This document shows, piece by piece, positions 19,544 through 32,792 of a stretch of DNA of 41,366 bases (position 1 is the first letter of the stretch; the number at the start of each line of letters is the position of its first letter). The stretch is taken from the IMG/VR virus record IMGVR_UViG_3300044994_000093; one strand, written 5' to 3'. The stretch comes from a virus. A model generated the notes under the pieces. It was given only the letters and a program-made list of their open reading frames with translations. It was not told the origin of the DNA and ran no database searches. Position numbers and translations under genes: made by a program.

Positions 19544-20515
19544 CTATCCCCGGATGATTTCCAATAGCCCGGGCTGGCATCCGGCCCCGTCCCAGTTTTC
19601 GCCGCTTTCGTCACTGAGGTAAAAAAGATCCCCGCTGGATTCGCCAGGCGCTCGTGGGTTGATAGCCCGGAACTCGACCTGGTGCTTGCTAAAAACCCGC
19701 CCGTCGGTAATGCAGCGGACCTGGCCGCCTTCGTCCAAGTGGTCGAGAATCTGCTTCCAGCGTGGCGTGGTGGCTGGCTTACTCACGGTCTGGCCTCTGC
19801 GTTGGCCGTCGGGCCGGTAGTCCTGGATGCGCCCCCAGAATGCCGACTCGAACCACTTGGGCGCTGACTTGCCGGAAGAAGTCGCCGCGTCCACGGTTTG
19901 CTGCCAGCATTCGCGAAGCACCAGATCGCCCAGGTTGGGATACTGAGCCTTGGCTTTGCCGAGCACGCGCCTTACCGTGCCGCCTGCCCAGTGCAGGTTG
20001 GTCAGATTCGGGTTTTTTGAGGCCACCAGGTAGTCGACGGCATCGGAAACAAATTTTTCATTTTCGGCATCGTCTGCGCACGCGGCACGCGTTAGCGTGC
20101 TTTCTCTCTCTGTTTCTAACTCTGTCTCTAACTCTGTATCTTGGGCCGGAGTCGCTACGGATTCACTCCGGAGTTTTTTATTTTGCTTTTTGGTGTGTTC
20201 GTCCCTGTATTCAACCATCTTAGGGCAATCGATGCGTATCAAATTCTGACGGTTTTCTGTGAAAGAAATTTTAAAAAGTTTCAAGTTTTCGCAGAAAAGT
20301 AGGAAGTTTTTGATCTTTTTTTCAGAAATTCTGAGGATTCTTTTCCAACTTGAGACCGGAAGTTCGACATGGGTTCGGTCGGTTTCGTCCATCTGTTCGC
20401 CGATGGTTTCCAGGATTAAAAAATAAATGCCATAGCCCTCTGGCCCGAATTCATCCAGGATTATCGCCAACTTTTCGTCTCTATTGGCCGTTGATATGTG
20501 CTTGAACCAACGCAT
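19544..20515 (-). CDS. Replisome organiser / replication initiation protein candidate (DUF4373-like N-terminal domain)
   Basis: 323 aa. N-terminus MRWFKHISTANRDEKLAIILDEFGPEGYGIYFLILE is the recalled Lin1244/Lin1753-type pattern. The acidic linker is encoded by tandem repeats. Confidence 0.6.
   Translation of the reverse strand: MRWFKHISTANRDEKLAIILDEFGPEGYGIYFLILETIGEQMDETDRTHVELPVSSWKRILRISEKKIKNFLLFCENLKLFKISFTENRQNLIRIDCPKMVEYRDEHTKKQNKKLRSESVATPAQDTELETELETERESTLTRAACADDAENEKFVSDAVDYLVASKNPNLTNLHWAGGTVRRVLGKAKAQYPNLGDLVLRECWQQTVDAATSSGKSAPKWFESAFWGRIQDYRPDGQRRGQTVSKPATTPRWKQILDHLDEGGQVRCITDGRVFSKHQVEFRAINPRAPGESSGDLFYLSDESGENWDGAGCQPGLLEIIRG
20108..20143. repeat. Three tandem 12-bp repeats (CTCTGTTTCTAA / CTCTGTCTCTAA / CTCTGTATCTTG), followed by a 7-bp inverted repeat (20146..20152 / 20165..20171) and a T-rich tract
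   Basis: Read directly. Lies in the linker of the replisome organiser gene and encodes TELETELETE. Confidence 0.7.
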
Positions 20516-22964: not shown

Positions 22965-23536
22965 CAGAGAACCCGCCTCCGTGCTTCCCGCTTTAGTGCC
23001 GCCGCCTTGCGGTATTCATCCCCACTCATTAACCAGACGAATGCAGCGGCCAGTGCGTCGGCGTGGTTGTCGTCCACAATCTTCGAGCCCTTCATATTCC
23101 AGACCGTCTGGACGGCCGCTCTGACCTCGTCCTTGCTGGCGCTGCCATTGGCGGCAATCCGGGCCTTGATTGATGTGGGAGAGACGGCATAAAAGGCCAG
23201 GCCGTAGGTTTTAGCAAAATCCTTGCAAAGCGCAGAGACAGCGCCCATCACGTTGGTGGTGTCTCCGCTCCGCCGAATAGGCGTGGTGTGTTCAATCACC
23301 AGCTCAGTGGGACGAAACTGGGTCATGAGGGTGACGAGATCGGTTCTGAGTACGTTCAGGCGATCCATCAGGCTGGTGGTGGGGCCTTTCATCCGGATGA
23401 CACCAGAGGTCAGAAGCCTGCCCGTCACCCCGTAAGCGACGGGGTGAGACGGGTCAGCTTCGACGACGGCAAATCCAGTATTCACACTGGCCTGGTCAAG
23501 CACCAGGGTGACGTGATGCGTCAACTGGCTAGGCAC
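22964..23536 (-). CDS. RuvC-like Holliday junction resolvase
   Basis: 190 aa. N-terminal VTLVLDQASVNTGFAVV (catalytic Asp context) and overall RuvC-like size. Confidence 0.65.
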   Translation of the reverse strand: MPSQLTHHVTLVLDQASVNTGFAVVEADPSHPVAYGVTGRLLTSGVIRMKGPTTSLMDRLNVLRTDLVTLMTQFRPTELVIEHTTPIRRSGDTTNVMGAVSALCKDFAKTYGLAFYAVSPTSIKARIAANGSASKDEVRAAVQTVWNMKGSKIVDDNHADALAAAFVWLMSGDEYRKAAALKREARRRVL

Positions 23537-24188
23537 TTTCCACCTCGTCGTTATTGCGGTAAAACTTGCGGGCGGCAGCGATTTGGCCCTGGGTCAGGCG
23601 CTGGCCCAGGTGAATTTTTTTGACCCGGAATTGCTGAATAAAGAACCGGCGTAGATCCGAGATACTGATGCCTAATTCAGCAGATAGGGACTTGAGCGTC
23701 TGTGGCGCGATGGCCTGGACGTTGTCATCTGACGAAGGCTCTTCGTCAGAACTTTGATCAGGATTTGATTCATCGTCCGGGGTTTCTGTCTCGGCATCTG
23801 ACTCAGCGTCCTCGGTCGATTCTTCCTCGGTTTCTTCGGTGGTTTCTTCGTCCGGGCTTTCGGCAGGCTCGGGTTTCGGGCCATCCGGATCAAATTCTTC
23901 CAGGTCGTCATCACTGGGTGTGTCATCATCCAGCGGTTCCGGATCAGCAGAATCCACAATCTCGGTATGGAATGTCAGCTGGCCGGAATCCAACTGGTTA
24001 AGCAATTCATCACGCTGTTTTTCTTTCGCTTTGATCTCGTTCTTGAGCGCGTTGGCTTCATTCACTTTAATCTCGCGGTCGTTTTTAAGGTTTGCTATCT
24101 CTTTTGAGATTGCATACAGATGCTCCAGGCGCTCTGTTTTGCTGACAAAATTCAACTGGGGCTCGTTATCGGCTGTCTCAATTGCCAC
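23529..24188 (-). CDS. Hypothetical protein with an N-terminal coiled coil, an ~80-aa extremely acidic tract, and a C-terminal helix-hairpin-helix-like motif
   Basis: GTG start with AAGGAG upstream. Acidic tract runs DSADPEPLDDDTPSDDDLEEFDPD...SDEEPSSDD. C-terminus contains LKSLSAELGISISDLRRF. Confidence 0.7.
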   Translation of the reverse strand: MAIETADNEPQLNFVSKTERLEHLYAISKEIANLKNDREIKVNEANALKNEIKAKEKQRDELLNQLDSGQLTFHTEIVDSADPEPLDDDTPSDDDLEEFDPDGPKPEPAESPDEETTEETEEESTEDAESDAETETPDDESNPDQSSDEEPSSDDNVQAIAPQTLKSLSAELGISISDLRRFFIQQFRVKKIHLGQRLTQGQIAAARKFYRNNDEVESA

Positions 24189-24632
24189 GGTTCACTCTCC
24201 TTTATGCCTATGATGGTGATGCCCTTCTTAGGGGCGGCCGCACGGTAATCACCTGCCTTTCTTACTTGTGCCCTCTATCGTCCCCTTCGATGCTTACTTA
24301 CTAGTCGTTTGTTAGTGACTTAACAGCTCATAAGTTCACCACCTCCTGTCTTTTCACCATCTCGTGGATCACCTCGGAATGGTTTAGGATTTGTTGGGTG
24401 CCGGTTGCCTCATCACCGGAAGGTTTCACCGTTCCACTCTGGGGTCAGTAATAGCTCGAACCCGAATAGCAGGTGTCGCTACCCTATGATGTTTACGACG
24501 GCATAGGCACCCTGTCTCTTGACTGCTGGCCGGATTTGAACCGACTCTTTGCTGTTTCCACCGCCAAGTTCACAAAGGATTAAGCGGAATTTGTGCCTTG
24601 CGTGTACGCCGCCACGCCGCAGCAGTCAAACC
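24189..24632 (-). other. 444-bp non-coding block inside the early operon; candidate structured RNA and/or replication origin
   Basis: No ORF of 60 aa or more in any frame. More than 20 stop codons on the sense strand. Six same-orientation TCACC (GGTGA on minus) motifs within 24249..24430. AT-rich tract 24290..24335. Several strong hairpins. Confidence 0.5.
24521..24627 (-). ncRNA. tRNA-like element with a non-canonical core
   Basis: 8-bp closing helix GACTGCTG/CAGCAGTC. T-arm GTCGG-TTCAAAT-CCGGC. D-like hairpin GCGTG-GCGGCGTA-CACGC. Central helix CACAAA/TTTGTG with a 13-nt loop. Extra hairpin capped by GGAA. No standard 7-nt anticodon loop could be drawn by hand. Confidence 0.3.
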
Positions 24633-24827
24633 TCAACTTGCCACCTTCTGGTAAAGAATCCACTCCATTTGCGATATAGTGAGTTTGTTAGGCTCTAAGC
24701 TGGTCCGGCGGAGGATTTCCCCCACCAACTCAAGTTCGTAGCATTCCCTGCCGCAGAAGGGCTCACCGGTGGTTTCAGCTAGGTAAGCCTGGTTGATTGG
24801 CTCAAAGCAGTGGGTGCACTCCATCAT
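24633..24827 (-). CDS. Small zinc-binding protein candidate
   Basis: 64 aa with CTHC...CGREC. Confidence 0.5.
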   Translation of the reverse strand: MMECTHCFEPINQAYLAETTGEPFCGRECYELELVGEILRRTSLEPNKLTISQMEWILYQKVAS

Positions 24828-24829
24828 TT

Positions 24830-25195
24830 CTAACCCTCTGCCTTATCCACAAATTGATCCGACCGATTAGCTAGAAAATGAGTAAACATTAAAGCTGTTG
24901 AGCGACGGCTTAAGGCTTCACGAGCAATGCTTGCACCACCAGAAGCCAGCAATTGGCCAGTGCAACAAATAACCGATTGAAAACTATCGTCGCCATCATC
25001 AAAAAGCTCTGATGAGGCGATTAAAATGAAACCATTCTTGTAGTCCTGCACTTTATCGAGATCGCCGGACGTATTATGAAATTCTCGCAGTAGTTTAATT
25101 GCTGCTTTGACTTCGTCCAGGGTTATAGCTTTTTGTTGTTCAGCAACTGTCATGAAATTCTCCAATTCAATGTTTAGGGTGTTAATCTGATGCAT
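24830..25195 (-). CDS. Hypothetical protein (121 aa)
   Basis: ORF in the early operon. Confidence 0.55.
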   Translation of the reverse strand: MHQINTLNIELENFMTVAEQQKAITLDEVKAAIKLLREFHNTSGDLDKVQDYKNGFILIASSELFDDGDDSFQSVICCTGQLLASGGASIAREALSRRSTALMFTHFLANRSDQFVDKAEG

Positions 25196-26243: not shown

Positions 26244-26437
26244 CTCAGGCCCTCTAAGCGTGCCTTAATGCGTTCCATCAACTGAATACGATGATCCATC
26301 TCGTCTGGTTTCATCGTGCCGTCGTTGACCATCCTGCCGAAGACGTGGCGACGCATAAGGATTTCACGTTCAATTTCCCTGATTTCCTGCTCAAGCTCAT
26401 GATTGTATCCAGGCAGTGAAAGCGGCTGTTGCATCAT
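26240..26437 (-). CDS. Hypothetical protein (65 aa)
   Basis: ORF coupled to recT. Confidence 0.5.
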   Translation of the reverse strand: MMQQPLSLPGYNHELEQEIREIEREILMRRHVFGRMVNDGTMKPDEMDHRIQLMERIKARLEGLR

Positions 26438-27390
26438 TTACCTGCTTTCTCGCCCGCTGGCGGCTCTGTCGGTTTACCAGCGAAGGAATCCAGACGGGAC
26501 TGCTGGGGCTCTTTGCTCTCGGCCTGGCCAGCATCATCCGGCTCGCTGGTTTGCGCCCAGATATCGATGACTTCTCCGGTTTCCACGTCCACCGTGGCAT
26601 ACCGGCCATCGTGGGCCGCGTCATCAATCTGCATGGCTATGCGCATCTGAGGCGTTAAGGCCATCGGGAGCCGTTTGTAGGCTCTGCGGAATACCGTCTT
26701 TTTGCCCATTTCCTCGAAGTGCTTGCCCCAGACAGAATCCTTTTGCTTGCCGTATTTGGCGGCCTGTTTATAGTTCGCCGATTCGTCCCGAACGCGCTCG
26801 ACATCGGCCTTGGTCATGAATTCCACATGCCTCGAACCGTCCTTGAATCGCACCAGGCAATAGAACCCGATGAGATCGCCCCGTGGGCCTCTCAGCTCCG
26901 GCTTGTGCTGGATGGGCTCCTCACGGCCATAATCGAGATCGAAATGGTCGTTGGCATACACATCCACGCAGCTAATCGAGCTGATTTCGCCGCTGTTCCG
27001 CACCAGGCGCATCAGGCCCTTGTAGCCGGGAATGACCTGGACTTGCTGACCGTAAGGCAACAGGTAAACCTGGCCGTGGTACGGATCCGGCTCCAGACCC
27101 ATCGCCGCTGCCGTGATGAGGCTTTTCATCAGGGAGCCAGGGTCACACTCCAGGAGCTTGGGCGTCTGTTTGATGTTCAACACGAACATCTGTTTCAGGC
27201 GGTTAAAGTCGAGGTGAGGCGGCATCACCGCCGTGATGTCGGAACGGATGGACTCGACTAGGACGCCCATGGCGTTGGCCCGGTCCTTCGTGGCGGCCTT
27301 TGGGTCCTGGACTTTCGCCATGGCTGCTGCAAAGTCTGTTTTCGTAATGCCTTTACTGCCGTCTGGAGCGGTTGCTAGTTGATTAGCCAT
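26434..27390 (-). CDS. recT: RecT-family single-strand annealing recombinase
   Basis: 318 aa. Contains QVYLLPYGQQVQVIPGYKGLMRLVRNSGEISSI. Paired with an upstream YqaJ-type exonuclease. Confidence 0.85.
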   Translation of the reverse strand: MANQLATAPDGSKGITKTDFAAAMAKVQDPKAATKDRANAMGVLVESIRSDITAVMPPHLDFNRLKQMFVLNIKQTPKLLECDPGSLMKSLITAAAMGLEPDPYHGQVYLLPYGQQVQVIPGYKGLMRLVRNSGEISSISCVDVYANDHFDLDYGREEPIQHKPELRGPRGDLIGFYCLVRFKDGSRHVEFMTKADVERVRDESANYKQAAKYGKQKDSVWGKHFEEMGKKTVFRRAYKRLPMALTPQMRIAMQIDDAAHDGRYATVDVETGEVIDIWAQTSEPDDAGQAESKEPQQSRLDSFAGKPTEPPAGEKAGK

Positions 27391-28363
27391 TATCGTTGGC
27401 CTCCTTCAATTTCATCTTGGTCACCCGGAGCACACGATAGGTCGAGGCCTTAACCATGTGCTCGGCTCGGGTCATTTCCTTATAGGTGACCTTGTATCCG
27501 TCACCCACAGCCACATCCGCCTCGGCTTTGGAGAGCACCTCGATAAACTTGGCTTTGATCAGGTCCTCGTTGTCTTTGGCTTCTTTGGTGTTCTGTTTAG
27601 CACGCTCCCACAGTTCGCAGAGTTCCAGCAGTGAGCCATCGTCGATGACGGCCACCTTGTTGATACCCTCGAACAGCTTGGCCGCCGTGGCCAGGTCGGC
27701 GGAATCGGATATCTCTGGAACTTGGCCCAGCTGGATCGTTTCCCAGAACTCGGCAACGGCCTCCTCCAGCATTCTGATGGTGGTCTCGTGCCGCTTCCGG
27801 ATGATGACGTGGGACTCGTTCCCACCCACCAGCATGCCTATGGCGCCCCAGGTTCTGCCGGTGACGGCCAGCTGATGCTGCAGCTGGAGCTCGATGTGGA
27901 GCGGCGCCTCGATGGACTTGTCTTCGTTCACTTGGAACGACGAATAGAACACGGACCGATCCACGTTCTTGATTTCCAGGCAGCCAGGGCCATCCGGGTG
28001 GTTTAAAATTTCATAGTCCAGGCTGGCGCCCATGCCTTTGACAGTCGGATGGAGCAGGTAGCGGCGAACCTTCTGGATTTTCCAACCCTGTTCCTCGGCT
28101 ATGCCCTGGGCAATCATGGGCTCCAGTAATGTCCCCCAGCGCATGCGCTCGTTGCCGAACTCCGGACGGGCTACCTTGCCCGATTTCTGATGCCAGAGAT
28201 TAAACCGGGTGATATAAGGCGATTCGCCAAACAGGGCCGCCACTTCGGAGCCGCCGATATTCTGAGCGCGAAGCTCATGCCAGTGGGCCTCATCCTCGAC
28301 TTTGACGTGACGCTTGCCCGTCAGCGCATCGGTGATGCCTTTCTCTTTCTCTGCCAGGGTCAT
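27383..28363 (-). CDS. YqaJ-like (lambda Exo-type, PD-(D/E)xK) recombination exonuclease
   Basis: 326 aa. Contains NIGGSEVAALFGESPYITRFNLWHQKSG...GTLLEP. Confidence 0.8.
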   Translation of the reverse strand: MTLAEKEKGITDALTGKRHVKVEDEAHWHELRAQNIGGSEVAALFGESPYITRFNLWHQKSGKVARPEFGNERMRWGTLLEPMIAQGIAEEQGWKIQKVRRYLLHPTVKGMGASLDYEILNHPDGPGCLEIKNVDRSVFYSSFQVNEDKSIEAPLHIELQLQHQLAVTGRTWGAIGMLVGGNESHVIIRKRHETTIRMLEEAVAEFWETIQLGQVPEISDSADLATAAKLFEGINKVAVIDDGSLLELCELWERAKQNTKEAKDNEDLIKAKFIEVLSKAEADVAVGDGYKVTYKEMTRAEHMVKASTYRVLRVTKMKLKEANDNG

Positions 28364-28499
28364 AAACCAGAGCTCTCCTTTTATGCCGCCTATTAACGAG
28401 TCAGCGCCGGAAAAACAGTGCGGATGCCACGAGAACGACTGCCGTCAGCCCGATACGAGGCAAAAACGGCGGAACACTGACGACGCTGGGTGTAAATGA

Positions 28500-28602
28500 G
28501 TCCATTGCCGGAATCGAACCGGTTACTTCAGGGATGGCAGACCCGAAGCCCGAACCTGGTTGGACAGGGAAACCGGCCGAAGCCGGGACGAAGGGTAATG
28601 AC
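28500..28602 (-). ncRNA. Second tRNA-like element (degenerate or atypical tRNA, or a tRNA-derived fragment)
   Basis: T-arm-like ACCGG-TTCGATT-CCGGC followed by AATGGAC. Upstream hairpins: CCGGC-UUCG-GCCGG (28573..28586), CCTG-TCCAAC-CAGG (28555..28568, loop resembles a Trp UCCAA loop), and CTTCGGG-9 nt-CCTGAAG (28526..28548). The acceptor pairing is imperfect. Confidence 0.3.
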
Positions 28603-28636
28603 TTGGTTATTGTTTGTTGGTTAGAGGAGAAGGAAT

Positions 28637-28709
28637 CGCCACCCGCAGGATTCGAACCTGCAACCATCGGCTTTGGAGGCCGCTGCGCTCCCGATTGCGC
28701 CAGGGTGAC
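28637..28709 (-). tRNA. trnW: tRNA-Trp (anticodon CCA)
   Basis: Hand-folded 73-nt cloverleaf: acceptor GTCACCC/GGGTGGC, D arm GCGC-AATCGGGA-GCGC, anticodon arm GCGGC-CTCCAAA-GCCGA (G27:A43 mismatch), variable loop TGGTT, T arm GCAGG-TTCGAAT-CCTGC, discriminator G. CCA is not encoded. Confidence 0.8.
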
Positions 28710-28773
28710 AGAGACAGGGGCCACCGGCCCCGAGGATGGCACGTAGTTCGTAACAGGGAACTCAGACACGGGA

Positions 28774-30967: not shown

Positions 30968-31243
30968 ATGATTAGCTTAGGGAAGGCTAACACTATGGAT
31001 AATGAGCCAAAATCATTCAAAGAACGATGGAAACGTTCTACTCGCAGCCAAAAGAATGGGTATATTGCTCTGGGTATATCGAGCGCCTTGATAATCGGTA
31101 TGCAATTTACGTTTTTAGGCGGTCTGCCTTGGTGGGTTTACATTCTCTTCTGGCTGATGCTTGCTGGCGGTCTGGCAGGTGCCTTTAATCAGGGTTCTGC
31201 TAATCAAAATCTGGCCGATATGAACAAGTCAGATGAAAAATAG
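30968..31243 (+). CDS. Small two-TM membrane protein
   Basis: TM segments YIALGISSALIIGMQFTFLGGLPWWVYILFWLMLAGGLAGAF. ATG 30995 has the better SD. Overlaps the integrase start by 11 nt. Confidence 0.5.
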   Translation: MISLGKANTMDNEPKSFKERWKRSTRSQKNGYIALGISSALIIGMQFTFLGGLPWWVYILFWLMLAGGLAGAFNQGSANQNLADMNKSDEK

Positions 31244-32792
31244 CAGCTGTTTTCTTTATGCCCGCGTCTCCTCCGACAAGCAAGAGGACGAAGGCTACAG
31301 CATTCCGGCCCAGCTCCGTATGCTCCAGGAGTATGCTGACCGCCAAGGCTTCACAGTGACCGAGGAGTTCATCGACGTTGAAACCGCGAAGCAACCAGGC
31401 CGGTCTGCCTTCAATCGGATGGTTAAGGCACTAAAAGCCAAAAACGCCCCTAAAATCCTCCTAGTGGAGAAAACCGACCGTCTCACCCGTAATTACCATG
31501 ATGAACTAACCATCAACAGCCTTGTGCAGGAACAAGGTGTGTCCGTCCACTACGTCAAAGAAGGCGAGATCATCTGCCAAAACGCCAGCTCCCACACGAA
31601 GCTGATACACAACATCAAAGTGGCCCTCGCCCAGCACTATGTGGACAACCTCTCCGAGGAAATCAAGAAAGGCAAGCGAGAAAAGGCCAAGCAAGGCGGA
31701 TGGTCGAGTAAGGCTCCGCTCGGTTATCAAATGGTCAAGGGTGAGCTCCAGGTGGATCCGGAAGGTGCCGCTTTTGTAAAGAAAGCATTCAGCCTGTTTG
31801 CCTCTGGAATTTACTCACTGCGGGCCTGTGCCGATAAACTCTTCGAATCCGGATTGATTTATAAGCCTGGCATCCCGGTCATCCAAGCCGCCACGCTGCA
31901 GAAAATACTAACGAATCGTCTCTACCTGGGCGAGGTTCACAACAACGGAGAGCGTTACCCAGGCAGGCATCAGCCGCTGGTGGATGAAATCACATTTCAG
32001 CAGGCTCAGAGAGCACTCAGAAAAGACAATAAACCGCTCAGTTACACGGCAAACACCTTTGTGTTCCGTGGCATCGTCAACTGTGGTGAATGTGGCTCGC
32101 CGCTCGTTGGAGAGCTAAAAAAAGGCGGAAAATACACCTATTATCGGTGTGTCACGAAGGCGCACCGCGGGGAATGCTCCCAGGGTTACATCAACGAAAT
32201 CAAGATGTCAGAAGCGGTCAAGCAAACGTTTCTCCGGATTCGCTTTCCGGAACACGTCAAAGATGCCATAGGCCTTGCAGTGGCTGAATCCGACAAAATC
32301 AAACAACGACAGGACGAGCACCAGGCCAGCGAGATTCGCAGAAAACTAACCAACGCCAAAAGCGCAATTCAGCAGGCATACAGAGACCGCACGGCCGGGA
32401 TAATCGACGCTGAATTCTTTCAGGAGCTGGCCGCAGAGTACAAAGAAAAAATCCAAAACTTAGAAATTGAGTTACAGGCCATCGGGAATGCGGATATCGA
32501 TTATTACGAGACCGTTCAAATGTTGTTCGAACTCGGCGAAACCTTGTATTCAAGCTGGATTGCAGGCACTGTGGAAGAAAACGCGTTACTTTTGAAATTG
32601 GTGTGTTCGAACTTTTCTGTCAAAGACGGAAACCCGCTCATTGAGCTGAAAGAACCGTTCCGAACATTGGCCAATACTGGCACTTGTAAACTTTGGTGGA
32701 GCAATAGAGAAGTAGCTCGAACGCTCCTGATACCTCTTCTTACGCAACACTCTGTTACAATTAGAACAATGCATCAAGCCTTGTGTGCCTAA
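31233..32792 (+). CDS. Large serine recombinase (phage integrase)
   Basis: 519 aa. Resolvase catalytic N-terminus FLYARVSSDKQ, recombinase domain, Cys-rich zinc ribbon (CGECGSP...YYRC), and a coiled-coil C-terminus. Confidence 0.85.
   Translation: MKNSSCFLYARVSSDKQEDEGYSIPAQLRMLQEYADRQGFTVTEEFIDVETAKQPGRSAFNRMVKALKAKNAPKILLVEKTDRLTRNYHDELTINSLVQEQGVSVHYVKEGEIICQNASSHTKLIHNIKVALAQHYVDNLSEEIKKGKREKAKQGGWSSKAPLGYQMVKGELQVDPEGAAFVKKAFSLFASGIYSLRACADKLFESGLIYKPGIPVIQAATLQKILTNRLYLGEVHNNGERYPGRHQPLVDEITFQQAQRALRKDNKPLSYTANTFVFRGIVNCGECGSPLVGELKKGGKYTYYRCVTKAHRGECSQGYINEIKMSEAVKQTFLRIRFPEHVKDAIGLAVAESDKIKQRQDEHQASEIRRKLTNAKSAIQQAYRDRTAGIIDAEFFQELAAEYKEKIQNLEIELQAIGNADIDYYETVQMLFELGETLYSSWIAGTVEENALLLKLVCSNFSVKDGNPLIELKEPFRTLANTGTCKLWWSNREVARTLLIPLLTQHSVTIRTMHQALCA

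What the first reader, a model, noticed from the sequence alone, without database searches (positions are those of the whole stretch)
24189..24632. 444-bp stop-saturated gap in a gap-free early operon, with a GGTGA motif array, hairpins and an AT-rich tract
Seen in sequence:
- Neighbouring early genes overlap or are separated by only a few nt, but this stretch has no ORF of 60 aa or more in any frame and more than 20 stop codons on the sense (minus) strand.
- Six exact same-orientation TCACC (GGTGA on minus) motifs lie within 182 bp, at 24249, 24336, 24354, 24369, 24413 and 24426. A seventh is inverted at 24215. About 0.18 would be expected per strand for a random pentamer.
- Two similar hairpins are each closed by GGTG...CACC (minus strand): GGTG-CCTATG...CATAGG-...-CACC and GGTG-AAACCTT-CCGGT-GATGAGGCA-ACCGG-CACC.
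- There is an AT-rich tract (24290..24335), a DnaA-box-like TGATCCACG, and a TAGTAAGTAA stop cluster.

Inference: this is either a roughly 400-nt structured non-coding RNA expressed with the early genes or an iteron-type replication origin. Neither can be matched to a known family by eye.
Basis: partly seen in the sequence, partly recalled or inferred. Interest (0 to 1): 0.7.

Follow-up and report, generated by a model that had tools for sequence, protein, structure and literature searches.

The report
Aberrant tRNA-like element in phage gap
The 444-base gap in this temperate phage's early operon is real non-coding DNA. Its first quarter is a misshapen, tRNA-Leu-like RNA gene sitting where related phages carry ordinary tRNA genes. 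It is neither a replication origin nor one large structured RNA, so it is a modest curiosity.

Summary
The gap (24189-24632, sense = minus strand) is real and is the largest non-coding stretch in the early operon. The motif positions are correct. The GGTGA cluster is non-random within the gap (0.04% of gap shuffles), but a comparable pentamer cluster appears somewhere in 14% of whole-window shuffles. The "DnaA box" and the "AT-rich tract" are at chance or weak level.

The gap is composite:
- **24519-24629:** a tRNA-shaped element with a 10-bp closing stem, a D-like hairpin and a canonical T arm. This skeleton occurs in 1 of 300 shuffled windows. It is most similar to tRNA-Leu(UAA) but lacks a proper anticodon arm, and ARAGORN and Rfam reject it.
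- **24396-24512:** a 117-nt imperfect hairpin (z = -2.8).
- **About 24190-24395:** a purine-rich leader that is unusually unstructured.
- **24220-24242:** a 23-nt box conserved upstream of the same gene in one distant relative.

Distant relatives carry tRNA-Trp in exactly this slot, or tRNA-Met or a small KGG gene nearby. I found no iterons, no AT-rich unwinding element, no Rfam family and no protein homology. All copies of the gap are identical, so covariation cannot be tested.

Best reading: a tRNA cargo slot holding a degenerate or non-decoding tRNA-like RNA followed by the 5' leader of the next gene. Interest is low to moderate.

The parts
24189..24632 (-). Whole non-coding gap between the 64-aa ORF (24633-24827) and the 219-aa 'MAI' gene (23529-24188).
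   Evidence: ORF maps. Gene callers on identical Logan and JGI contigs call no gene here.
24519..24629 (-). tRNA-like element. Closing stem UUGACUGCUG (24629-24620) pairs with CAGCAGUCAA (24528-24519). D-like hairpin GCGUG-8 nt-CACGC (24617-24600). Ill-defined middle containing CUUAA. T arm GUCGG-UUCAAAU-CCGGC (24545-24529) directly abuts the 3' strand of the closing stem.
   Evidence: 10-bp perfect inverted repeat. Rfam tRNA-Sec 17 bits, E = 2.7. Acceptor plus T-arm skeleton found in 1 of 300 shuffled windows. Pair probabilities: closing stem about 1.0, T arm 0.9-0.99, D hairpin 0.74, anticodon-like stem 0.17. Similar to tRNA-Leu(UAA). Not called by ARAGORN at default settings.
24396..24512 (-). 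117-nt imperfect hairpin closed by GGGUGCC/GGCACCC.
   Evidence: MFE -45.9 kcal/mol, z = -2.78, equalled by 1 of 200 shuffles. The plus strand gives -42.8 kcal/mol, z = -1.9. The boundaries were chosen post hoc, and coding regions elsewhere in the window give stronger residuals in the scan.
24254..24395 (-). Purine-rich, unstructured linker. It holds three GGUGA copies, SD-like GAGGUGAUCC (24375-24366) and AGGAGGUG (24347-24340), mini-ORFs of 10 codons (AUG 24360) and 3 codons (AUG 24331), and the stop cluster 24303-24294.
   Evidence: Sequence. MFE z = +0.29. 64% purine over 24189-24395. No protein homology.
24215..24253 (-). GGUGAU-12 nt-GCCCCUAAGAAGGGC-AUCACC. A possible small nested hairpin containing the sixth GGUGA and the inverted copy.
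   Evidence: Sequence. Not favoured thermodynamically: z = +0.2, and the inner hairpin is absent from the MFE structure.
24220..24242 (-). 23-nt box UGCGGCCGCCCCUAAGAAGGGCA. It is conserved (20 of 23) at the same place upstream of the MAI gene in relative L104.
   Evidence: equalled by 1 of 1000 shuffles. The core 15-mer is 13 of 15 identical to lambda nutL boxB, which was read from NC_001416.
24186..24202 (-). Shine-Dalgarno sequence AAGGAG (24202-24197) and the GTG start (24188-24186) of the 219-aa gene.
   Evidence: The N-terminus aligns from residue 1 with homologues in five relatives.

Best explanation
The gap is a non-coding cargo slot in the early (minus-strand) operon of a temperate phage. 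It is built from unrelated pieces and is not a single device.

Piece 1 (24519-24629) is a tRNA-derived gene, closest to class-II tRNA-Leu(UAA). It keeps the acceptor, T-arm and D-arm 'top half' of a tRNA. Its anticodon and variable region is enlarged and poorly defined, so it very probably cannot decode.

I found no sigma-70-type promoter or intrinsic terminator in the gap. From this I infer that the gap is co-transcribed with the operon. I also infer that the tRNA-like fold is recognised by the host tRNA-processing enzymes (RNase P at the 5' side, 3' trimming), as must happen for the genuine tRNA-Trp in the operon's other large gap. That cleavage would cut the polycistronic mRNA between the recombination genes (YqaJ exonuclease, RecT) and the replication genes (219-aa protein, RuvC, helicase, initiator).

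The downstream mRNA would then begin with the 117-nt hairpin, which could act as a 5' stabiliser or an RNase III site. That hairpin is followed by a purine-rich, unstructured leader carrying a short conserved box and the ribosome-binding site of the 219-aa gene.

The GGTGA 'array' is a by-product of GGUG pairing with CACC or CAUC in the hairpins, plus Shine-Dalgarno-like purine runs. It is not a set of protein-binding iterons.

Shown: the absence of coding signal, the anatomy, the tRNA-like skeleton, and tRNA genes in the same slot in relatives. Inferred: transcription, processing, and any role of the hairpin or the box.
For: tRNA-like element:
- A 7-bp acceptor plus canonical T arm occurs in 0.3% of shuffled windows.
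- The window's only three T-arm-like hairpins are all on the sense strand and all inside the operon's two large gaps.
- The internal part aligns to tRNA-Leu(UAA) with z = 2.9 (equalled by 23 of 2000 shuffles) but not to tRNA-Thr, which was picked by the same 20-mer (z = -0.45).
- A covariance model built from the element scores tRNA-Leu at 32.8 bits and tRNA-Thr at 21 bits.

Slot context:
- tRNA-Trp sits directly upstream of the homologous gene in L009/L010 and L076. L077 carries tRNA-Trp, and L013 and L012 carry tRNA-Met, elsewhere in the early operon.
- Only the module of 219-aa protein, RuvC, helicase and initiator is conserved. The upstream DNA is mosaic.

Other points:
- No promoter-like or terminator-like site in the gap.
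- Hairpin z = -2.78.
- The 3' half is unstructured.
- The conserved box is shared with L104.
- Four GGUGA copies pair with CACC, CAUC or AUCACC in the proposed helices: two in the MFE hairpin and one plus the inverted copy in the weakly supported 24215-24253 hairpin.
Against: - All retrievable copies of the gap are 100% identical, and no diverged homologue of the element was found anywhere. Conservation and covariation are therefore untested.
- The element fails ARAGORN and Rfam thresholds.
- Its fold z-score is only -1.36, and its middle is thermodynamically undefined.
- The tRNA-Leu similarity is modest. It rests on tRNAs that were found with a 20-mer taken from the element itself.
- The hairpin boundaries were chosen post hoc, and the hairpin is not among the strongest folds found in the window-wide scan.
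- There is no expression or processing data.
- The host is unknown, so the sigma-70 promoter scan may not apply.
Confidence: 0.5

Rival explanations
1. Evolutionary debris. The gap is the decayed remains of former cargo (one or more tRNA genes and/or a small gene such as the KGG gene of relatives). It has no present function beyond spacing and providing the next gene's ribosome-binding site.
For: - Relatives carry intact tRNA-Trp or a KGG gene in this slot.
- The element is non-canonical.
- The other large gap also holds a T-arm remnant without a stable tRNA fold.
- The gap's 5' edge resembles the 3' end of the phage's own tRNA-Trp (equalled by 1 of 200 shuffles).
- A strong SD plus AUG is followed by a stop at codon 4 (24347-24320).
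- The 3' half is purine-rich and unstructured, as a former coding strand might be.
Against: - The closing stem (10 of 10 pairs), the T stem and the D stem are all perfect, which is not expected of a drifting pseudogene.
- There is no DNA or protein similarity to the KGG genes, although the two KGG genes match each other clearly.
- The gap is identical in samples from four sequencing projects.
Confidence: 0.25
2. A functional, non-decoding tRNA mimic. The element, perhaps together with the adjacent hairpin, would act as a regulator or as a decoy for host tRNA-directed enzymes such as anticodon nucleases or modification and processing enzymes.
For: - The tRNA top half is intact while the anticodon region is remodelled.
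- The geometry is 8/5, as in tRNA-Sec.
- Non-canonical tRNAs are documented in phages (PMC5389517).
Against: No homologues and no covariation. There is no associated defence or counter-defence gene next to it. The middle of the molecule has no preferred fold.
Confidence: 0.12
3. One dedicated structured non-coding RNA of about 400 nt, expressed with the early genes.
For: It is the largest non-coding stretch in the operon. The 5' half contains stable helices.
Against: - Whole-gap z-scores are -0.8 (minus strand) and -0.2 (plus strand).
- The 3' 200 nt are among the least structured windows.
- No Rfam family matches.
- No homologue was found in phage, viral, metagenome or genome searches.
Confidence: 0.06
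4. An iteron-type replication origin.
For: Clustered GGTGA copies. A 117-bp imperfect palindrome. Replication genes lie downstream.
Against: - The motif is only 5 bp, with spacings of 13, 44, 15, 18 and 87 bp.
- There are no repeats of 17-22 bp.
- GC is 52%, with no unwinding element.
- The DnaA-like box is at chance level.
- There is no skew inflection.
- The slot is variable or absent in relatives that share the replication module.
- An AT-rich tract inside the initiator gene is a better origin candidate.
Confidence: 0.04
5. An N/nut-like antitermination site. The conserved hairpin GCCCCUAAGAAGGGC would act as a boxB analogue upstream of the replication genes.
For: - 13 of 15 identity to lambda nutL boxB. 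L104's version has the same identity to nutR boxB.
- Its position in the early operon, before the replication genes, resembles that of lambda nutR.
Against: - The first loop base G and the closing U-A pair of boxB are lost.
- There is no boxA.
- The hairpin is not favoured by folding.
- No arginine-rich N-like protein is seen among the small early ORFs.
- No terminators were predicted downstream.
- The same 15-mer is common in viral contigs as Ala-Pro-Lys-Lys-Gly codons.
Confidence: 0.03

Closest known systems
Phage-encoded tRNA genes and tRNA pseudogenes in intergenic slots of early operons
   Same: It has an acceptor stem with a directly abutting canonical T arm, a D-like hairpin, and similarity to tRNA-Leu(UAA). 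It lies in an operon gap where relatives carry tRNA-Trp or tRNA-Met. CCA is not encoded, as is also true of the phage's own tRNA-Trp.
   Different: It is 107-111 nt long. It has no 5-bp/7-nt anticodon arm. It has a 5-nt insertion after the acceptor stem and a 10-bp closing stem. It falls below the ARAGORN and Rfam thresholds.
Non-canonical tRNAs: bacterial tRNA-Sec (8/5) and allo-tRNAs (8/4, 9/3), some of them phage-borne (Mukai et al. 2017, PMC5389517)
   Same: A long acceptor stem (8 bp) with a 5-bp T stem, an extended D stem, and a long region in the place of the variable arm. The best Rfam hit is tRNA-Sec.
   Different: It scores 17 bits against a 47-bit gathering threshold. It has no UCA or other well-presented anticodon. 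Allo-tRNAs have 12-bp acceptor branches and normal anticodon loops.
tmRNA
   Same: A tRNA-like domain followed by an mRNA-like stretch with short ORFs and tandem stop codons.
   Different: The tRNA-like domain closes on itself before the 'mRNA' part rather than around it. There is no G3:U70 pair, no pseudoknots and no hydrophobic tag. ARAGORN and the Rfam tmRNA models are negative.
Lambda nut sites (boxA plus boxB)
   Same: The 15-nt GC-clamped, A-rich hairpin is 13 of 15 identical to lambda boxB. It lies in an early operon ahead of the replication genes. It is conserved in one relative.
   Different: There is no boxA. The GNRA-like pentaloop and its closing pair are lost. No N-like protein was found.
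Iteron-containing phage and plasmid origins
   Same: Clustered same-orientation short motifs in a non-coding stretch near replication genes.
   Different: The motif is 5 bp rather than 17-22 bp, and its spacing is irregular. There is no AT-rich unwinding element. It is not adjacent to the initiator gene, and it is not conserved with the replication module.

Membership tests
Canonical tRNA (Rfam RF00005 / ARAGORN) | A 7-bp acceptor stem whose 3' strand directly follows a 5-bp T stem with a UUCRANY loop. | tested here: met
   ACUGCUG/CAGCAGU plus GUCGG-UUCAAAU-CCGGC. This skeleton occurs in 1 of 300 shuffled windows.
Canonical tRNA (Rfam RF00005 / ARAGORN) | A 5-bp anticodon stem with a 7-nt loop (U33, purine 37). 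| tested here: not met
   The best candidate is a 6-bp stem with a 13-nt loop, at pair probability 0.17. ARAGORN only yields a forced 'intron' solution at 80% stringency.
Canonical tRNA (Rfam RF00005 / ARAGORN) | Reaches the detection threshold of the standard tools. | tested here: not met
   No ARAGORN call. No Rfam gathering hit. The best hit is 17 bits at E = 2.7.
Canonical tRNA (Rfam RF00005 / ARAGORN) | Processed, CCA-tailed and aminoacylated in vivo. | not testable with these tools
   Requires RNA-end mapping and charging assays.
tRNA-Sec / allo-tRNA | A 13-bp (8/5) or 12-bp (8/4, 9/3) acceptor branch with a long variable arm and a defined anticodon. | tested here: inconclusive
   An 8/5 geometry is possible. 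The variable and anticodon region is undefined. The score is 17 bits against a 47-bit gathering threshold.
tmRNA | A tRNA-like domain formed by the 5' and 3' ends around a tag ORF and pseudoknots, with a G3:U70 pair. | tested here: not met
   ARAGORN in tmRNA mode is negative except for junk hits at 60% stringency. No tmRNA family appears among the Rfam hits at E<=10, although overlapping lower-scoring matches of the same clan are not listed. The acceptor stem has C3-G70.
Iteron-type replication origin | Three or more direct repeats of about 17-22 bp at regular spacing. | tested here: not met
   Only two-copy repeats of up to 19 nt at 74-86% identity. The pentamer spacings are 13, 44, 15, 18 and 87 bp.
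Iteron-type replication origin | An adjacent AT-rich unwinding element and/or significant DnaA boxes. | tested here: not met
   GC is 0.48-0.53 across the gap. The tract is 65% AT, inside the top 2.5% of windows. The 7-of-9 box is one of 107 such matches in the window.
Iteron-type replication origin | Initiator binding and replication initiation map here. | not testable with these tools
   Needs EMSA or ChIP, marker-frequency analysis or 2D gels.
Known large or structured bacterial and phage ncRNAs in Rfam 15 (ROOL, GOLLD, HEARO, raiA, YrlA, RNase P, 6S, riboswitches, group I introns and others) | A covariance-model match. | tested here: not met
   No hit at gathering thresholds. At E<=10 there are only chance-level hits in 23900-24950.
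Lambda-type nut site | A boxB hairpin with a 5-bp stem and GNRA-like pentaloop, plus boxA (CGCUCUUA) upstream. | tested here: not met
   The sequence is GCCCC-UAAGA-AGGGC. It has a C·A closing mismatch, U in place of the loop G, and no boxA.
Pseudogene of the KGG small-protein gene that relatives carry here | Residual DNA or protein similarity to KGG genes or to Pfam PF10685. | tested here: not met
   tblastn, Smith-Waterman, Pfam and DNA alignments are all at null level, whereas L013 against L007 scores 34 against a null of 10.7.

The most novel reading that the evidence does not exclude
The 111-nt element would be a functional, non-decoding tRNA mimic: an intact acceptor/T/D 'top half' with a deliberately remodelled anticodon region. 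The phage would express it from its early operon, possibly acting together with the adjacent 117-nt hairpin. Its role could be to punctuate the early mRNA through RNase P, or to decoy or titrate host tRNA-directed enzymes such as anticodon-nuclease defences. That would make it a previously undescribed class of phage tRNA-like RNA.
Probability: 0.12. Interest if true: 0.55.

Novelty: new member of a known kind. Interest (0 to 1): 0.3.

Why it matters
If the best reading holds, this is one more case of phage operon gaps serving as interchangeable cargo slots for tRNA genes. It would also be an example of a tRNA gene caught either in decay or in conversion to a non-decoding tRNA-shaped RNA.

The finding has practical value for annotation. 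Standard tRNA finders miss such elements. A striking short-motif 'array' can also arise as a by-product of a few helices and Shine-Dalgarno-like runs.

It would matter more only if the element proves to be a processed, functional tRNA mimic, for example in mRNA punctuation or as an anti-defence decoy. The present data can neither show nor exclude that.

Tried and rejected
**Homologue searches**
- blastn of the gap and of the element against 50,697 GenBank phages found nothing significant.
- Exact or degenerate pattern scans of IMG/VR used the T-arm/acceptor 22-mer, a loop-plus-T-loop pattern, the D-arm 16-mer (44 chance hits), the 15-mer box (119 or more hits, mostly APKKG codons) and the extended 22-mer box (0 hits).
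- The flanking 219-aa and 64-aa proteins have almost no homologues among 5.8 billion proteins.
- RecT, 219-aa-protein and RuvC-based locus searches recovered only distant relatives.
- Twelve contig look-ups gave five identical copies of the gap, two of them partial, and about ten distant relatives without the element.
- A covariance model of the element found only true tRNAs in the held loci.

**Coding tests**
- Six-frame fragments were scanned against PHROGs and Pfam. The best hit was E = 0.011, with nothing at a curated level.
- tblastn against phages gave nothing.
- phmmer of the 38-aa open frame against 1.84 billion proteins gave 0 hits.
- The KGG-pseudogene idea was rejected statistically.
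- A split gene joined by an intron was rejected because the 219-aa protein aligns with its homologues from residue 1.

**Other ideas rejected**
- tmRNA, including the permuted form.
- Paralogy between the operon's two large gaps: shared k-mers are at chance level.
- Sequence homology to the relatives' tRNA slots: none.
- A MITE or repeat copy elsewhere in the window: none.
- An N-like arginine-rich protein: none seen.
- A Shine-Dalgarno explanation for GGTGA through host SD usage: the phage's genes use GGAG/GAGG, not GGTGA.
Full report
**Context**

The window is a temperate phage genome of about 41 kb. It encodes a large serine recombinase (31233-32792), a terminase, and other phage functions. 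A long minus-strand early operon runs in this order:
- YqaJ exonuclease (27383-28363)
- RecT (26434-27390)
- small ORFs
- a 64-aa ORF (24633-24827)
- the gap
- a 219-aa acidic protein whose homologues begin 'MAI' (23529-24188)
- RuvC
- an SF2 helicase
- a Lin1244_N-type initiator (19544-20515)

Genes in this operon overlap or are at most 86 nt apart. The exceptions are this 444-nt gap and a 410-nt gap at 28364-28773 that holds a genuine tRNA-Trp.

**Check of the observation**

The sense strand has 27 stop codons, and no ORF in the gap exceeds 49 aa.

The TCACC/GGTGA cluster of six copies in 182 bp is seen in 0.04% of dinucleotide shuffles of the gap. A comparable cluster of some pentamer appears somewhere in 14% of shuffles of the whole window. 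It is therefore meaningful only conditional on the gap having been chosen first.

The 'DnaA box' is one of 107 matches of equal quality in the window. The 'AT-rich tract' is 65% AT, and the gap overall is 52% GC. No iteron-length repeats exist.

**What the gap contains**

Reading the minus strand 5' to 3':

(i) 24629-24519 is a tRNA-shaped element.
- A perfect 10-bp stem (UUGACUGCUG/CAGCAGUCAA) closes a domain.
- Inside are a D-like hairpin and a textbook T arm (GUCGG-UUCAAAU-CCGGC). The T arm abuts the 3' strand exactly as in a tRNA.
- An acceptor-plus-T-arm skeleton of this quality occurs in 1 of 300 dinucleotide-shuffled windows.
- The closing stem, T arm and D hairpin have pair probabilities of 0.74-1.0. 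The middle has no preferred fold. The best anticodon-like stem has probability 0.17 and a 13-nt loop.
- ARAGORN and Rfam do not call it. The best Rfam hit is tRNA-Sec at 17 bits against a 47-bit gathering threshold.
- A genome-wide scan with its T-arm/acceptor 20-mer returned true tRNA-Leu(UAA) and tRNA-Thr(CGU) genes.
- Outside that 20-mer the element resembles the tRNA-Leu genes (GUGGCG...CGCAAGG D arm, CUUAA), with z = 2.9. It does not resemble the tRNA-Thr genes, with z = -0.45.
- A covariance model built from the element ranks tRNA-Leu (32.8 bits) above tRNA-Thr (21 bits).

(ii) 24512-24396 is a 117-nt imperfect hairpin closed by GGGUGCC/GGCACCC.
- Its MFE is -45.9 kcal/mol, z = -2.78.
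Two GGUGA copies pair in it with CACC and CAUC.
- The plus strand folds almost as well.
- Coding regions elsewhere in the window give stronger residuals in a window-wide scan.

(iii) 24395 to about 24190 is 64% purine and ranks among the least structured 2-3% of 120-nt windows.
- It carries three GGUGA copies inside Shine-Dalgarno-like runs (GAGGUGAUCC, AGGAGGUG).
- It also carries mini-ORFs of 10 and 3 codons and the tandem stop cluster.

(iv) 24253-24215 can form a small nested hairpin, GGUGAU...GCCCCUAAGAAGGGC...AUCACC.
- This accounts for the sixth motif and the inverted copy.
- Folding does not favour it.

**Comparative evidence**

The gap is 100% identical wherever it is covered in every contig that carries it, from Logan runs SRR30649430, SRR35364708 and SRR35364711 and from JGI 3300044941. 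Covariation therefore cannot be assessed.

No diverged homologue of the gap or of the element was found in any of these sources:
- GenBank phages
- IMG/VR
- the related loci recovered from JGI metagenomes by the RuvC-based search
- GTDB genomes

Distant relatives, with helicases 45-56% identical, share only the module of 'MAI' protein, RuvC, helicase and initiator. The DNA upstream of that module is mosaic. What sits upstream of the MAI gene varies:
- tRNA-Trp directly upstream in L009/L010 and L076
- a small KGG-domain gene in L007, L013 and the P0011 contig
- short gaps without a tRNA in L102, L103 and L104
- tRNA-Trp or tRNA-Met elsewhere in the early operon in L077, L013 and L012

The position is thus a variable cargo slot that often holds a tRNA.

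One short piece is conserved. Window 24242-24220 matches L104 at 20 of 23 positions, at the equivalent place upstream of the MAI gene (equalled by 1 of 1000 shuffles).

**Coding and pseudogene tests**

There are no significant Pfam or PHROG hits for any frame. The longest open frame has no hit among 1.84 billion proteins.

There is no similarity to the relatives' KGG genes at the DNA, protein or HMM level, although those genes match each other clearly.

The 219-aa protein aligns with its homologues from residue 1, which excludes a split gene.

**Origin test**

Beyond the lack of iterons and of an AT-rich element, GC skew shows no inflection here. The slot is not conserved with the replication module. 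A 30-33% GC tract inside the initiator gene (about 20160-20370) is a more conventional origin candidate, although I found no clear iterons there either.

**Interpretation**

The most economical account is a composite: a tRNA-Leu-derived, non-decoding tRNA-like gene inserted in a tRNA cargo slot, followed by a hairpin and the unstructured leader of the next gene.

Neither a sigma-70-type promoter nor an intrinsic terminator is predicted in the gap. I therefore infer co-transcription with the operon and processing of the tRNA-like fold by RNase P and the 3' trimming enzymes. This would split the early mRNA between the recombination and replication modules. That step is inference, with confidence about 0.5.

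The main rival is that the gap is non-functional debris (0.25). The perfect stems argue against this, and the undefined middle argues for it. A functional tRNA mimic or decoy is the most novel reading not excluded (about 0.12).

The conserved box is 13 of 15 identical to lambda boxB, which I verified on NC_001416. It lacks boxA, the GNRA-like loop and a recognisable N-like protein. I therefore treat the resemblance as unexplained and not as evidence of nut-site membership.

**Verdict**

The gap is a real and correctly described non-coding region, but the interpretation overreached. It is a new, aberrant member of the known class of phage tRNA-derived elements. Interest is low to moderate (0.3), pending expression data or diverged homologues.

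Noticed in passing
window 28364-28773 (minus strand): This is a second large non-coding gap in the same operon. It holds tRNA-Trp(CCA) at 28636-28710. About 115 nt downstream there is a second T-arm-like hairpin, ACCGG-UUCGAUU-CCGGC (28507-28523), with a possible bulged acceptor-like stem. Folding does not support a tRNA shape, so it is probably a tRNA remnant.
   Followed up: partly
window 24610-24638 vs 28636-28664 (minus strand): The 5' edge of the gap, overlapping the stop codon of the 64-aa ORF, resembles the T-arm and acceptor 3' end of the phage's own tRNA-Trp. The match is about 24 of 29 aligned positions with 2 indels and was equalled by 1 of 200 shuffles. This may be a scar of a tRNA-Trp that once occupied this slot, as it does in relatives L009 and L076.
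   Followed up: partly
window 24220-24242; L104 4323-4346: A 23-nt box (UGCGGCCGCCCCUAAGAAGGGCA) is conserved upstream of the MAI gene in two phages whose helicases are only 49% identical. Its core is 13 of 15 identical to lambda nutL boxB, and L104's core has the same identity to nutR boxB. Its function is unknown.
   Followed up: partly
window about 20160-20370: An AT-rich tract (GC 0.30-0.33) with T-runs and short inverted and direct repeats lies inside the 5' part of the Lin1244_N initiator gene. On the plus strand it gives some of the strongest fold residuals in the window (second- and fifth-ranked windows, residual z = -3.9 and -3.7). It is a more conventional candidate for the replication origin than the gap.
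   Followed up: partly
window 24197-24208 and 28376-28387 (minus strand): The genes that follow the operon's two large gaps share a near-identical translation-initiation region, GGCAUAAA(A)GGAGAG.
   Followed up: no
L076 about 47-62; L077 about 1655-1670; window 28725-28740: In several of these phages the tRNA-Trp gene is preceded by a GC-rich hairpin that looks like a terminator: GCCCC-UUCG-GGGGC in L076 and L077, and GGGGCC-GGU-GGCCCC in the window.
   Followed up: no
P0017 (helicase homologue, 823 aa, Logan): One close helicase homologue carries intein/homing-endonuclease domains (PF05204, PF05203, PF14528) inserted in the helicase.
   Followed up: no
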